Origin: a bacterium
GTDB taxonomy: Bacteria; Planctomycetota; SKW154; DAOVDS01
Length of the DNA stretch: 50,590 nucleotides
Reading direction: 5' to 3'
Assembly: GCA_030669415.1 (NCBI GenBank)
Contig: DAOVDS010000001.1
Location: forward strand, 1 to 50,590
Part shown: positions 19,420-21,367 of the stretch, piece by piece
Layout: every line of letters starts with the position of its first letter
Position numbering within the stretch: position 1 is the stretch's first letter
The notes under the pieces: model-generated
Database searches by the model: none
Told to the model about the DNA's origin: nothing
What the model saw: only the letters and a program-made list of their open reading frames with translations
Translations under genes and position numbers: made by a program

Positions 19420-20031
19420 ATGAATGGCGAAGACATGAAGAAATGCCCCTACTGCGCCGAGATGGTGCCCGCCAGGGCAATCAAGTGCCGCTACTGCGGC
19501 GAGTTCCTGGACGGCTCGCAACAACAGCCCTACGCGTCGGCGCCAGTACAGCAGCCGCCACCCAACAAGCTGTCCACCTGCCTGATACTCGTGATTGTGG
19601 CTGTTGGGGCAATCCCGTTTATCGCCATAGTGGCTGCGATTGCGATACCCAACATGCTCTCGTCGAGGCGCAGTGTAAAAGAGGCGTTTGTGGAGTCCAT
19701 GTGCACAGACGTAGCCTCGGCCCAGGAAGCCTACTACCTGGAGAACAGCAGGTATGGCACACTAAAGGAACTCGCAGATAAAGTGCTGATAATGCCGAGC
19801 CTCGGGAGCGGGAGCATACACGAGTATCGCTTCGAGCTTGAGGTCAGCCCGGACGGGCAGGACTGGTCGATGGTGGCCTGGCCGGTGAATCCGAGGCCCT
19901 CCACGGAAAGCTATTACATTGACACAACCGGTGAGCTGCGAACCGAGAGTTACACAAGCCATTCCGACGAAAAGGCGGGACCTGACAGCCCGCCGATTAT
20001 GGACTGGGACAGCTCAGACTGGGATGATTGA
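19420..20031 (+). CDS. Protein with zinc ribbon, one TM helix and a pilin-like domain; paralog 1
   Basis: CPYC-x10-CRYC, then the helix [15 protein letters not shown], then a GspG/pilin-like alpha-beta region. No G/FTLIE prepilin cleavage site. Confidence 0.7.
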   Translation: [203 protein letters not shown]

Positions 20032-20075
20032 GGCGGCGCCGTTGTGTCAAGACACCGCGGCAAGAGGAAGCATGA

Positions 20076-20705
20076 ATGATTGAGCCCCTGCAGCCCCAGC
20101 GCCAGCCCGGCAAGAGGGTGCGAAGGTCGCAGTACGTCAAGAGATGCCACGCGTGCCGCGAGAAAGTCCCGGCTGATGCGAGGAAGTGCCGCCACTGCGG
20201 CGAGCTGCTCGACAAGAGGAGAAGAACGGCCGTACTTCCGCCCAAGAAGCCCCTGTCAACATGCGTAATACTGCTGATTGTCGCGGTAGCTGTTGTACCG
20301 TTCATTGCAATCGTGGCGGCAATCGCCATACCCAACCTGCTGGCGTCGAAAAAGACTGTCAACGAAGTCGCGGCTGTCAGCACGTTGAGAACCCTCTCGT
20401 TCGCCCAGGAAGTCTTTGTCACCAAGTACAGTAGATACGGAAGCTTCGATGAGCTGCAGGGAATGGGCGTTATTGACATGTCACTGGCGCAGGCGACGAC
20501 TCCCGAGCGGGCGAAGTCGGGGTACTGTTACGCGCTGAAAGCTGGTGAAGACGCCTGGTCGTGTACAGCCGTGCCGGCCGTTCCCGGTACGACGGGCCGC
20601 AAGAGCTACTACATTGACCAGTCAGGCGTTATCCGCTCTTCGATAATGACAAGCAGCTATGACGAGCCGGCTGACGAAAACAGTTTTCCATCCGGCGGGT
20701 GGTAG
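20076..20705 (+). CDS. Protein with zinc ribbon, one TM helix and a pilin-like domain; paralog 2
   Basis: CHAC-x10-CRHC, [15 protein letters not shown], C-terminal [11 protein letters not shown]. Confidence 0.7.
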   Translation: [209 protein letters not shown]

Positions 20706-20731
20706 CATGTCGTACCAGAGGGAGACAGGTT

Positions 20732-21367
20732 ATGAACGAGTTTGATGGAAACCAGGCCCAGCCACAAGGACAAACAGGTGGGTTGCGCCCGATGAAGCAG
20801 TGCCCCTTCTGCGCCGAGGAAATACTTGACGACGCCGTGAAGTGCCGTTACTGCGGTGAGTTCCTGGCACAAGGCAGGCCGAGAGGCTATCCGCCCCCGC
20901 CACCACAGGGGGGCATGCCCGGCTGGGTAATCGTACTGATTGTCGGGGCTGTTGCCGGTCCTGTGGTTATTGCAATCATAGCGATAATCGCGGCGATTGC
21001 GATACCCAACCTCCTCGAATCGAAGACAGCGGCCAACGAAACCTCAGCGATAGCCACCTGCTACGAATTCTGCTCTGCCGAAGAACTGTATGCCGCCAAG
21101 TACGGCAAGTATGGAACTGTTGAGCAACTCAGGGATGCTGACCTGATAGACGAGCGACTCGCAGGCGGTATCAAGAGTGAGTACCATTTCAGCCTGACAG
21201 TTGGAGAGGATGGGCAAACCTGGTCAATGACCGCCGTACCGGGGGCGCCGGGTATGGGAGGCAGGAGGAGTTTCTACACAGACCAGACAGGTGTCGTACG
21301 CCATAGAAGATACACCAGCAGAAACGACCCGCCGGCCGACGGCAGCAGCACACCGTTAGGAGAGTGA
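20732..21367 (+). CDS. Protein with zinc ribbon, one TM helix and a pilin-like domain; paralog 3
   Basis: ATG 20732 follows GAGGGAG. CPFC-x10-CRYC, [14 protein letters not shown], C-terminal [11 protein letters not shown]. Confidence 0.7.
   Translation: [211 protein letters not shown]

What the first reader, a model, noticed from the sequence alone, without database searches (positions are those of the whole stretch)
19420..21367. Three tandem non-cleavable pilins: a cytoplasmic zinc ribbon replaces the prepilin leader
Each paralog (203, 209 and 211 aa) has four parts:
- An N-terminal CxxC-x10-CxxC ribbon (CP(Y/F)CAE...KCRYCGEFL).
- A Pro/Gln- or Arg-rich linker.
- One TM helix ending in AAIAIPN(L/M)Lx(S)(K/R). 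This is the conserved distal half of the type IV pilin / T2SS pseudopilin N-terminal helix.
- About 120 aa with GspG-like spacing (A..E..Y....YG.....L ... W...A.P ... (S/Y)(F/Y)Y.D..G..R).

The hallmark G|FTLIE cleavage/methylation site with Glu5 is absent. These proteins therefore cannot be processed by a prepilin peptidase. They should stay anchored N-in/C-out, with the pilin head outside and a zinc ribbon in the cytoplasm. I do not know of a described function for this architecture. It could be a filament base or anchor, a transmembrane signalling device, or a decoy. The family is expanding and decaying locally, as the fragments A and B show.
Basis: partly seen in the sequence, partly recalled or inferred. 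Interest (0 to 1): 0.7.

Follow-up and report, generated by a model that had tools for sequence, protein, structure and literature searches.

The report
Zinc-ribbon-anchored, leaderless type IV pilin paralogs
Three neighbouring genes encode proteins with a genuine type IV pilin body whose normal cleavable leader is replaced by a cytoplasmic zinc-binding knob, so they probably stay tethered in the inner membrane; this protein class is widespread in metagenomes, but I found no description of it.

Summary
Three tandem + strand genes (19420-20031, 20076-20705, 20732-21367) encode 203, 209 and 211 aa paralogs that are 42-44% identical. Each has four parts:
- an N-terminal CxxC-x10-CxxC ribbon;
- a Pro/basic linker;
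- one long hydrophobic helix ending in AAIAIPN(L/M)L;
- a head domain.

The head and helix match hundreds of canonical type IVa pilins (E about 1e-20). AlphaFold2 models (pLDDT 88-90) match pilin structures first.

No class III signal peptide is present. Glu5 is missing. Paralogs 1 and 2 have no Gly before the helix, but paralog 3 keeps GG|MPGW. The hydrophobic stretch is 27-41 residues, against an invariant 22 in canonical relatives.

The array lies in the same gene neighbourhood in three other assemblies, two of which keep all three genes. It is under purifying selection (dN/dS 0.15).

The architecture is not unique. Thirty-nine of the best 146 representatives in a profile search carry a zinc ribbon and no leader. 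Related forms use DUF4190, acidic tails or Sec signal peptides with 2-5 tandem heads. All that were looked up are unnamed or 'hypothetical'.

No pilus machinery gene lies near any fusion locus.

Best reading: membrane-retained pilin derivatives that do not polymerise. Their function is unproven.

The parts
19341..19370 (+). Promoter-like site (TTGACA-18-TAGACT) upstream of paralog 1; probable promoter of the array
   Evidence: Matches the consensus at 10 of 12 positions. The same site is duplicated in fragment B at 17045-17074. This is a consensus match only.
19420..20031 (+). Paralog 1 (203 aa). Zn ribbon at residues 9-26 (nt 19444-19497). Gln/Pro linker. Hydrophobic helix at residues 51-80 (nt 19570-19659), ending in AAIAIPNML. 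Pilin head at about residues 83-180. Conserved acidic/aromatic tail [15 protein letters not shown].
   Evidence: AF2 pLDDT 88.4, with one continuous helix 53-109 followed by four strands. The top Foldseek hits are the pilins PilX and 4d40. dN/dS against ortholog L085 is 0.15 overall and 0.015 for the tail.
20076..20705 (+). Paralog 2 (209 aa). Zn ribbon at residues 24-41 (nt 20145-20198). Arg/Lys/Pro linker. Hydrophobic helix at residues 60-89 (nt 20253-20342), ending in AAIAIPNLL. Pilin head.
   Evidence: AF2 pLDDT 89.5 (head 97-98), helix 62-118. The Foldseek top hit is 6xxd_A, Thermus PilA4 (TM-score 0.71, probability 1.0). There are 2031 homologues, and canonical pilins match at E about 1e-20.
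20732..21367 (+). Paralog 3 (211 aa; 222 aa from the GTG at 20699). Zn ribbon at residues 24-41 (nt 20801-20854). Pro-rich linker ending in GG. Hydrophobic helix at residues 62-95 (nt 20915-21016), ending in AAIAIPNLL. Pilin head.
   Evidence: This is the only paralog that keeps Gly before the helix (GG|MPGW). The ortholog in L095 reads GGLPGW.
17035..17155 (+). Fragment B: a duplicated copy of the array's promoter-like site, 5' UTR and first 9 codons (MNGEDMKKC), followed by Arg and a stop
   Evidence: 87.6% identity over 121 nt to 19331-19451. tblastn matches 9 of 9 residues. The promoter-like site is at 17045-17074.
14625..14819 (+). Fragment A: a 64-aa ORF holding a degenerate zinc-ribbon remnant (CPFR...[12 protein letters not shown]) with no TM helix or head after it
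   Evidence: 78% nt identity between 14637-14732 and 19420-19518. tblastn E = 9e-12. ORF listing.

Best explanation
The three genes encode single-pass inner-membrane proteins derived from type IVa major pilins. The short cleavable class III leader and the first half of helix alpha1 (Gly-1, Phe1, Glu5) have been replaced. In their place are a cytoplasmic Cys4 zinc ribbon, a Pro/basic linker, and a longer hydrophobic stretch with no acidic residue.

**Inferred steps.**
- The proteins insert N-in/C-out, as prepilins do.
- Paralogs 1 and 2 have no Gly-1, so the prepilin peptidase should not cut them.
- The cytoplasmic domain and the missing Glu5 should prevent extraction into a homopolymeric fibre.
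- The pilin heads therefore stay tethered on the periplasmic face.

The outer half of alpha1 (AAIAIPNLL...NE) is identical in all three paralogs, although they are only about 42% identical overall. I therefore think they still make pilin-type helix-helix contacts. These contacts would be with each other, as a membrane-anchored three-subunit stub, and/or with ordinary pilins at the base of a type IV filament. There they could act as an anchor, a brake or a sensor that cannot be pulled out, with the ribbon as a cytoplasmic handle.

**Shown:** the architecture, the pilin homology and fold, the absence of the class III motif, conservation and selection.

**Inferred:** topology, lack of processing, oligomerisation, and any link to a pilus machine.
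For: - Helix and head are homologous to canonical pilins.
- The AF2 models show a lollipop with a continuous 57-residue helix and match pilins first.
- There is no PF07963 hit, and Glu5 is absent.
- Paralogs 1 and 2 and their zinc-ribbon-bearing relatives read K/R-x-[LMT]-[SP]-T-C (NTSAC in P0159), with no Gly.
- The literature states that Gly-1 is absolutely critical for processing and that Glu5 is needed for homopolymer assembly (PMC4471445).
- In 134 of 135 canonical relatives the distance from residue -1 to Pro22 is exactly 22. In 47 non-canonical relatives the uninterrupted stretch runs mostly 26-41 residues.
- AAIAIPN and the four Cys are invariant among the paralogs.
- dN/dS is 0.15 overall, 0.25 for the ribbon and 0.14 for the TM helix.
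- The array lies in the same neighbourhood in L001, L003 and L095. L001 and L095 keep all three genes; L003 shows only the paralog 1-like and paralog 3-like genes and its contig ends inside the first.
- An N-terminal CX2CX10CX2C motif in membrane proteins has been shown experimentally to bind zinc in Lactococcus (PMC4628341).
- There is an archaeal precedent. [quoted passage not shown]
Against: - No pilus or secretion machinery gene lies in the 50-kb window. None lies within 10 kb of any of 14 fusion loci, against 14 of 70 canonical pilin loci. The one-sided p is about 0.06 and the loci are not independent.
- Whether the genome has PilD, PilB/C or ordinary pilins could not be checked.
- Paralog 1 orthologs in L001 and L003, and the paralog 1-like protein P0146, lack AAIAIPN. 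The L001 and L003 proteins also have no ribbon in front of their plain TM anchor, whereas P0146 keeps its ribbon. So pilin-type helix contacts are not essential for that lineage.
- Sec-secreted proteins with 2-5 tandem heads exist, so the head can work without any pilin helix.
- Paralog 3 keeps a possible cleavage Gly.
Confidence: 0.42

Rival explanations
1. Pilus-independent exaptation. The pilin head has become a general periplasmic module for binding or scaffolding. It is merely hung on the membrane by any convenient anchor (zinc ribbon plus TM, DUF4190, acidic tail plus TM) or secreted as tandem repeats. On this view the three proteins have nothing to do with a type IV filament.
For: - Proteins with ordinary Sec signal peptides carry 2-5 tandem heads (P0123, P0128, P0131, P0134).
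- Paralog 1 orthologs have a plain signal anchor and no AAIAIPN.
- The neighbours of fusion genes are housekeeping or unrelated genes.
- 0 of 14 fusion loci have a PilB/T-type ATPase nearby.
- The leader has been replaced in at least 3-4 separate head lineages.
Against: The nine-residue AAIAIPNLL segment, including Pro22, and the following N-E are conserved at 100% in paralogs that share only about 42% identity, and in most fusion relatives. This is hard to explain for a generic anchor. This segment of alpha1 does not pack on the head. Most canonical pilin genes (56 of 70) also lack nearby machinery genes.
Confidence: 0.27
2. They are still precursors. The zinc ribbon is an unusually long, structured leader that is removed by the prepilin peptidase at a degenerate site, or by another protease. 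The Glu5-less mature proteins then enter a filament as minor subunits, either at the tip like GspK or co-assembled with a major pilin.
For: - Paralog 3 and its orthologs keep Gly directly before the helix (GG|MPGW, GGLPGW).
- A motif G-[ML]-[SP]-[TG]-[WM]-L-I-L-L recurs in other clades.
- Glu5 is dispensable for processing, and Glu5 mutants co-assemble with wild type (PMC4471445).
- GspK-type minor pilins naturally lack Glu5 (bioRxiv 10.1101/2025.02.12.637803).
- Relatives with 15-35 aa acidic tails ending in K-G-G-M look like long leaders.
Against: - Paralogs 1 and 2 and all their Zn-ribbon orthologs seen have no Gly in the 10 residues before the helix.
- The leaders are 50-62 aa, against 6-26 in known prepilins.
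- The distance from helix start to Pro is 27-41 residues and variable, against a fixed 22. This would break the register of a filament core.
- The ribbon is under purifying selection.
Confidence: 0.15
3. The genes are decaying pilin pseudogenes or mis-called ORFs without function.
For: Two truncated copies lie nearby. One environmental allele of paralog 2 (L095) has an in-frame TAG before the ribbon.
Against: - All three reading frames are intact and have Shine-Dalgarno-like sites.
- dN/dS is 0.15.
- The four Cys and the pilin core are invariant across paralogs and orthologs.
- The array is conserved between genomes whose ATP synthase beta subunits are 88% identical.
- The AF2 models are confident.
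Confidence: 0.03

Closest known systems
Canonical type IVa major pilins (Thermus thermophilus PilA4, PDB 6xxd; Myxococcus PilA, 8tj2; PF07963-bearing 'PilA' proteins of Acidobacteriota and Planctomycetota)
   Same: Homologous from AAIAIPN through the whole head: 36-48% identity and E about 1e-20. The lollipop fold is the same.
   Different: There is no 6-26 aa leader ending in Gly, no Phe1 and no Glu5, and PF07963 does not hit. A 50-62 aa cytoplasmic region with a Cys4 ribbon takes their place. The hydrophobic stretch is 5-19 residues longer. No machinery genes lie nearby.
Archaeal ArlF/ArlG (FlaF/FlaG)
   Same: [quoted passage not shown] They stay membrane-associated and act as the anchor or stator of the type IV filament machine (PMC10117864). 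This is the best functional analogy.
   Different: They are archaeal, have a beta-sandwich archaellin domain and no zinc ribbon, and are encoded inside the arl operon. No sequence relationship was seen here. This is an analogy only.
Glu5-less minor pilins (GspK, PilX-type; V. cholerae TcpB as an assembly and retraction modulator)
   Same: [quoted passage not shown]
   Different: They keep a normal leader with Gly-1, are processed, and are encoded in pilus or T2SS operons.
N-terminal CX2CX10CX2C zinc-ribbon membrane proteins (Lactococcus Llmg_0524/0526; S. aureus TcaA, NF053815)
   Same: They have the same ribbon spacing followed by a TM helix. Zinc binding has been shown experimentally for the Lactococcus proteins. 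All three paralogs give weak hits to the TcaA N-terminus (E 0.005-0.1).
   Different: Their extracytoplasmic domains are unrelated, and none carries a pilin domain. The Pfam ribbon scores here fall just under threshold (26.0 against 27).
Zn-ribbon-DUF4190-pilin fusions of Acidobacteriota and Verrucomicrobiia (L006-L009, L013, L016, L036, L051, L052, L057; P0023)
   Same: The idea is the same: a cytoplasmic ribbon and no class III motif, followed by AAIAIPN and a pilin head.
   Different: An extra DUF4190-type hydrophobic module sits between the ribbon and the pilin helix. They belong to different head lineages and are also uncharacterised.

Membership tests
Type IV pilin / class III signal peptide proteins (PF07963, TIGR02532) | Short hydrophilic leader (6-26 aa) ending in Gly-1 | tested here: not met
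   The region before the helix is 50-62 aa and contains a Cys4 ribbon. Paralogs 1 and 2 have no Gly in the last 10 residues. Paralog 3 has GG before MPGW. The definition comes from PMC4471445.
Type IV pilin / class III signal peptide proteins (PF07963, TIGR02532) | Glu at position 5 of the hydrophobic stretch | tested here: not met
   None of the three paralogs, and none of 47 non-canonical relatives, has an acidic residue in the hydrophobic segment.
Type IV pilin / class III signal peptide proteins (PF07963, TIGR02532) | A 21-residue hydrophobic alpha1N with fixed register to Pro22 | tested here: not met
   The distal half (AAIAIPN) is conserved. The stretch is 27, 28 and 41 residues here, against 22 in 134 of 135 canonical relatives.
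Type IV pilin / class III signal peptide proteins (PF07963, TIGR02532) | Match to the N_methyl profile | tested here: not met
   No PF07963 hit at E<=1. The precomputed Pfam column is '-' for the fusion proteins except P0005 (PF10571), and lists PF07963 for nearly all canonical hits.
Type IV pilin / class III signal peptide proteins (PF07963, TIGR02532) | Alpha/beta pilin fold (long alpha1 packed on an antiparallel sheet) | tested here: met
   AF2 pLDDT is 89.5 and 88.4. The best Foldseek hits are PilA4, ComP, PilX, PilV and 4d40.
Type IV pilin / class III signal peptide proteins (PF07963, TIGR02532) | Processing by prepilin peptidase and assembly by a type IV filament machine | not testable with these tools
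   This needs biochemistry. No machinery genes lie in the window, and the rest of the genome is not available.
T2SS major pseudopilin GspG (TIGR01710) | Profile score above the curated cut-off | tested here: not met
   The best score is 21.9 bits against a cut-off of 88.85.
Zinc ribbon (PF13248 zf-ribbon_3, PF10571 UPF0547, PF13240) | Two CxxC knuckles and a profile match | tested here: inconclusive
   The four Cys are invariant. The AF2 ribbon has pLDDT 90-94. The Pfam scores of 16-26 bits fall just below the gathering cut-offs of 25-29. Metal binding was not tested.
ArlF/ArlG-type filament-subunit-like anchors | Subunit-like domain without a class III signal peptide, encoded in the filament operon | tested here: not met
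   The first half is met. The operon context is not met, and no homology was detected. This is used as an analogy only.
Anti-phage defence proteins (PADLOC) | Match to a defence-system profile | tested here: not met
   None of the three paralogs gives a hit.

The most novel reading that the evidence does not exclude
These proteins may be the bacterial counterpart of archaeal ArlF/ArlG. On this reading they form a dedicated class of pilin subunits that cannot be extracted, held in the membrane by a cytoplasmic zinc ribbon. They would assemble through the conserved alpha1 segment into a one-turn, three-subunit stub. The stub would anchor, terminate or nucleate a type IV filament at its membrane end, and could report its state to the cytoplasm through the ribbon.
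Probability: 0.15. Interest if true: 0.8.

Novelty: new variant of a known kind. Interest (0 to 1): 0.57.

Why it matters
Type IV filament biology assumes that every pilin-fold subunit enters through the class III leader and prepilin peptidase route. This work finds a recurrent, conserved and unnamed set of pilin derivatives in which that route has been dismantled and replaced by a permanent membrane anchor. The change appears to have happened several times, in Acidobacteriota, Planctomycetota-like and other uncultured lineages.

If these proteins interact with pilus machines, they would be a new kind of regulator or anchor acting at the least understood place, the membrane-proximal end of the fibre. 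If they do not, they show that the pilin head is a mobile periplasmic module with a life outside filaments.

Either way, the family offers a natural experiment on what the N-terminal 13 residues of a pilin are for. It also gives a defined function-discovery target for the very common 'zinc ribbon + TM' N-terminal module.

Tried and rejected
- **N-terminal profile search.** A profile of the N-terminal part only (ribbon to AAIAIPN, alignment A4) was searched in the 5.8-billion protein set. It returned almost only short fragments and canonical pilin N-termini, and did not even list the known full-length fusions. It was uninformative.
- **Genome-collection scan.** The scan with the fusion alignment was flooded by canonical pilins through the AAIAIPN pattern. 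No close relative of the window's lineage was found. Only DUF4190-type fusions were recovered.
- **Metagenome DNA pattern scan.** The pattern required CGE plus AAIAIPN at the right spacing. Only 3 of the 80 loci read were true fusions. The rest were canonical pilins with a chance upstream match.
- **Taxonomy from the ATP synthase beta subunit.** The closest sequences (84-91% identity) are unnamed. The best named hits tie at 75-76%: a Planctomycetota MAG, Deferrisoma, Calderihabitans, Deltaproteobacteria MAGs and Moorellaceae. The phylum is unresolved.
- **Internal start restoring a normal prepilin.** Rejected. There is no G-F-T-L-I-E anywhere. The only internal Met (paralog 3, M62) follows a G-run with 1-nt spacing and is Leu in the L095 ortholog.
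- **Pseudogene reading.** Rejected by dN/dS and conservation.
- **Other searches.** Rfam found nothing in the window. PADLOC found nothing for the paralogs.
- **Neighbourhood test.** The PilB/T Walker-motif test is suggestive but not significant.
- **Conserved convergent PEMT/ICMT-like methyltransferase.** It was considered as a functional partner. It is part of a long syntenic block running to the ATP synthase operon, so linkage alone proves nothing.
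Full report
**1. What is there**

Three + strand ORFs lie head to tail at 19420-20031, 20076-20705 and 20732-21367. An alternative GTG start for the third is at 20699.
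- Each ATG follows a Shine-Dalgarno-like purine run.
- A sigma-70-like site, TTGACA-18-TAGACT, lies at 19341-19370.
- The proteins are 203, 209 and 211 aa long and 42-44% identical.

All three share the same layout:
- CxxC-x10-CxxC at residues 9-26, 24-41 and 24-41.
- A Pro/Gln- or Arg/Lys-rich linker.
- One hydrophobic segment that ends in the invariant AAIAIPN(L/M)L.
- A domain of about 120 aa.

Pfam gives sub-threshold zinc-ribbon hits: PF13248 scores 26.0 bits against a cut-off of 27, with further hits to PF10571, PF12773 and PF13240. It gives no N_methyl (PF07963) hit. NCBIfam gives weak pilin hits (PilA_Myxo, ComGC, GspG) that begin at model position 6-20, so they skip the leader and Phe1-Glu5.

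**2. It is a pilin**

A search with paralog 2 found 2031 proteins at E<=1e-3.
- After a handful of same-architecture proteins (P0002-P0007, P0018, P0023), the list is made of 140-180 aa proteins. They carry PF07963, are named PilA or prepilin, come from Planctomycetota and Acidobacteriota, and score E about 1e-20.
- The alignment shows homology from AAIAIPN through alpha1C (NE...A...LR) and the whole beta-sheet to the C-terminus.
- A profile of this alignment hits geopilin, Thermus PilA4, Myxococcus PilA, PAK pilin and GspG in the PDB.

AlphaFold2 supports the fold.
- Paralog 2: pLDDT 89.5, head 97-98, one continuous helix 62-118 followed by four strands.
- Paralog 1: pLDDT 88.4, helix 53-109.
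- Foldseek ranks pilins first. For paralog 2 the order is 6xxd_A PilA4 (E 7e-4, probability 1.0, TM-score 0.71 normalised to the target), then ComP, PilX and PilV. For paralog 1 it is PilX and 4d40.

**3. The class III signal peptide is gone**

In the alignment, canonical relatives read (K/R)G|F(T/S)LIELLIV. The window proteins read [24 protein letters not shown] and [12 protein letters not shown].
- There is no Glu anywhere in the helix.
- From residue -1 to Pro22 is exactly 22 residues in 134 of 135 canonical relatives.
- From the last charged residue to the Pro is 27, 28 and 41 residues in the paralogs, and mostly 26-41 in 47 non-canonical relatives.

The review by Berry and Pelicic (PMC4471445) states the rules:
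- Bacterial leaders are 6-26 aa and invariably end in Gly.
- This Gly is absolutely critical for processing.
- Glu5 is dispensable for processing, but Glu5 mutants cannot form homopolymers.

By that rule, paralogs 1 and 2 should not be cut. The same holds for the relatives that share their ribbon and helix-start motif (P0002-P0005, P0007, P0125, P0159), which also have no Gly. Paralog 3 keeps Gly, as does its ortholog in L095 (GGLPGW). Many other clades read KG|MSTW or KG|LSGW, so cleavage cannot be excluded for those. No internal start restores a normal prepilin.

**4. Conservation**

The array sits in a syntenic block. It is followed by a convergent PEMT/ICMT-like methyltransferase, a PHP phosphatase, an M20 peptidase, an aminotransferase and the ATP synthase operon. 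The same block is seen in L001 (GCA_964641955.1) and L003. The three genes recur in the same order on L095.

Orthology is clear:

| Window paralog | L095 | L001 | L003 |
|---|---|---|---|
| Paralog 1 | 70% | about 42% | 51-56% |
| Paralog 2 | 67% | 53% | not seen |
| Paralog 3 | 73% | 37% | 51% |

ATP synthase beta is 88% identical between the window and L001, so these proteins evolve fast. They are nevertheless maintained. dN/dS of paralog 1 against its L085 ortholog is 0.15 overall, 0.25 for the ribbon, 0.14 for the TM helix and 0.015 for the acidic tail.

The paralog 1 orthologs in L001 and L003 have a plain basic tail plus a generic TM helix, with no ribbon in front of it and no AAIAIPN. 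The L003 gene runs off the start of its contig.

**5. Local decay**

- Fragment B (17035-17155) copies the promoter-like site, the 5' UTR and the first 9 codons of paralog 1 at 87.6% identity.
- Fragment A (14637-14732, inside a 64-aa ORF) is a ribbon remnant with its first knuckle broken.
- Between and around them lie low-GC DNA (0.48-0.50), two lipoprotein genes of unknown family, a secreted 252-aa protein and an MNT/HepT toxin-antitoxin pair.

**6. How common is the architecture?**

A profile of nine fusion proteins was scored against 1.84 billion representatives. It gave 28,630 hits at E<=1e-3. The best 146 non-self hits break down as follows:
- 39 have a CxxC...CxxC ribbon and no class III motif.
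- 34 are canonical.
- 73 have neither feature. These include charged-tail-plus-TM forms, truncated calls and multi-head proteins.

Some of the multi-head proteins carry ordinary Sec signal peptides and 2-5 tandem heads.

Ten species-representative genomes (Pyrinomonadaceae, Acidobacteriaceae, Terriglobia, Verrucomicrobiia) encode ribbon-DUF4190-pilin fusions.

A neighbour-joining tree of the heads places the leaderless forms in at least 3-4 separate groups. Fitch parsimony gives a minimum of 11 state changes, although the tree of a short domain is noisy. This points to repeated leader replacement or module swapping.

All ten proteins looked up, eight of them leaderless single-head forms, are unnamed or 'hypothetical protein'. 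No paper in the library combines 'zinc ribbon' with 'type IV pilin', or DUF4190 with 'pilin'. The four papers that hold both 'zinc-ribbon' and 'pilin' mention each only once or twice and are on unrelated subjects.

**7. Context and function**

The window holds no pilus or T2SS gene. A PilB/T-type Walker A motif occurs within 10 kb in 0 of 14 fusion loci and 14 of 70 canonical pilin loci. The one-sided p is about 0.06 and the loci are not independent. Neighbours of DUF4190-type fusions look like housekeeping genes. PADLOC and Rfam are negative. The phylum of the organism could not be fixed.

**8. Interpretation**

These points are shown:
- real, selected genes;
- a ribbon-linker-TM-pilin architecture;
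- descent from type IVa major-pilin-like proteins;
- loss of Gly-1 in two of the three paralogs, and loss of Glu5 and of the helix register in all three.

These points are inferred:
- N-in/C-out topology. Pilins insert this way, and Cys4 ribbons are cytoplasmic. The same CX2CX10CX2C motif binds zinc in Lactococcus membrane proteins (PMC4628341).
- No maturation by prepilin peptidase for paralogs 1 and 2.
- Hence permanent tethering.

AAIAIPNLL...NE is identical in paralogs that are only 42% identical overall, and this segment does not pack on the head. I therefore favour continuing pilin-type helix contacts (0.42). These would be among the three proteins and/or with ordinary pilins at the base of a filament. 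The analogy is archaeal ArlF/ArlG, which carry archaellin domains without a class III signal peptide and anchor the motor (PMC10117864).

The main rival is pilus-independent use of the head as a periplasmic module (0.27). It is supported by the Sec-secreted multi-head relatives and by paralog 1 orthologs with a generic anchor. Processing of a long ribbon-containing leader (0.15) remains possible, mainly for paralog 3. Pseudogene status is rejected (0.03).

**9. Verdict**

'Non-cleavable' must be restricted to paralogs 1 and 2. The locus is one member of a broad, undescribed class rather than a one-off. I rate it a new variant of a known kind (type IV pilin-like proteins), with interest of about 0.57.

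Noticed in passing
window 17035-19451: A 121-nt direct repeat (17035-17155 and 19331-19451, 87.6% identical) brackets about 2.2 kb. The bracketed DNA carries a 61-aa TM ORF, a secreted 252-aa ORF (17437-18195) and an MNT/HepT toxin-antitoxin pair (18594-19264). It looks like an insertion into the 5' end of paralog 1. The duplicated promoter-like site now faces the inserted genes.
   Followed up: partly
window 14764-16747 (- strand): Two adjacent lipoprotein genes (lipoboxes LVSGC and VSGC; 236 and 427 aa) give no Pfam or PADLOC hit. They lie in a low-GC stretch (0.48) directly next to ribbon fragment A. They may have displaced a fourth paralog.
   Followed up: partly
window 21356-22093 (- strand): A PEMT/ICMT-like membrane methyltransferase lies convergent to paralog 3, with the 3' ends overlapping by 12 nt. 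The same neighbour is found in L001 and L003. It sits within a long syntenic block, so a functional link is unproven.
   Followed up: partly
window 19960-20031 (paralog 1 residues 181-203): The acidic/aromatic C-terminal tail [21 protein letters not shown] is almost invariant (dN/dS 0.015 against L085). It recurs in P0146 and in the ribbon-less L001 ortholog. It is a likely interaction motif specific to the paralog 1 lineage.
   Followed up: partly
L095 about 744-746: In an environmental relative, the paralog 2 ortholog has an in-frame TAG where the window has CAG (Gln19). It lies just upstream of a perfectly intact zinc ribbon. The source's gene caller therefore started at MSTCVILL (P0006). 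This could be a sequencing error, a recent nonsense allele or a ribbon-less isoform.
   Followed up: partly
P0123, P0124, P0128, P0131, P0134 (database proteins): These proteins carry 2-5 tandem copies of this pilin head. Most have ordinary Sec signal peptides; P0124 starts inside a head. Three heads per chain is the commonest count among those mapped (P0128, P0131, P0132, P0134), which echoes the three-gene array.
   Followed up: partly
window 24167-25768 (- strand): A 533-aa HEAT/PBS-lyase repeat protein in a low-GC stretch (0.49) lies between the M20 peptidase and the aminotransferase. These two genes are adjacent in L001, so this looks like an insertion.
   Followed up: no
window 37995-39353 and 42229-43797: The first gene is an unusual NuoF-like fusion: a 2Fe-2S thioredoxin-like domain, a 51K FMN domain and a molybdopterin-dinucleotide-binding domain. 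The second encodes an FHA-GAF-adenylate/guanylate cyclase.
   Followed up: no
L009 10750-11109: In an Acidobacteriota MAG, the ribbon-DUF4190-pilin gene is followed directly by a second small gene. It starts with a nearly identical ribbon ([22 protein letters not shown]) but has no pilin head. This suggests that the ribbon module duplicates independently.
   Followed up: no
P0168, P0182 (database proteins): These proteins consist of 4-5 tandem copies of the same ribbon subtype (CP.CGEEI...AIKC[RK][YH]C). The ribbon is therefore a distinct, mobile module in its own right.
   Followed up: no
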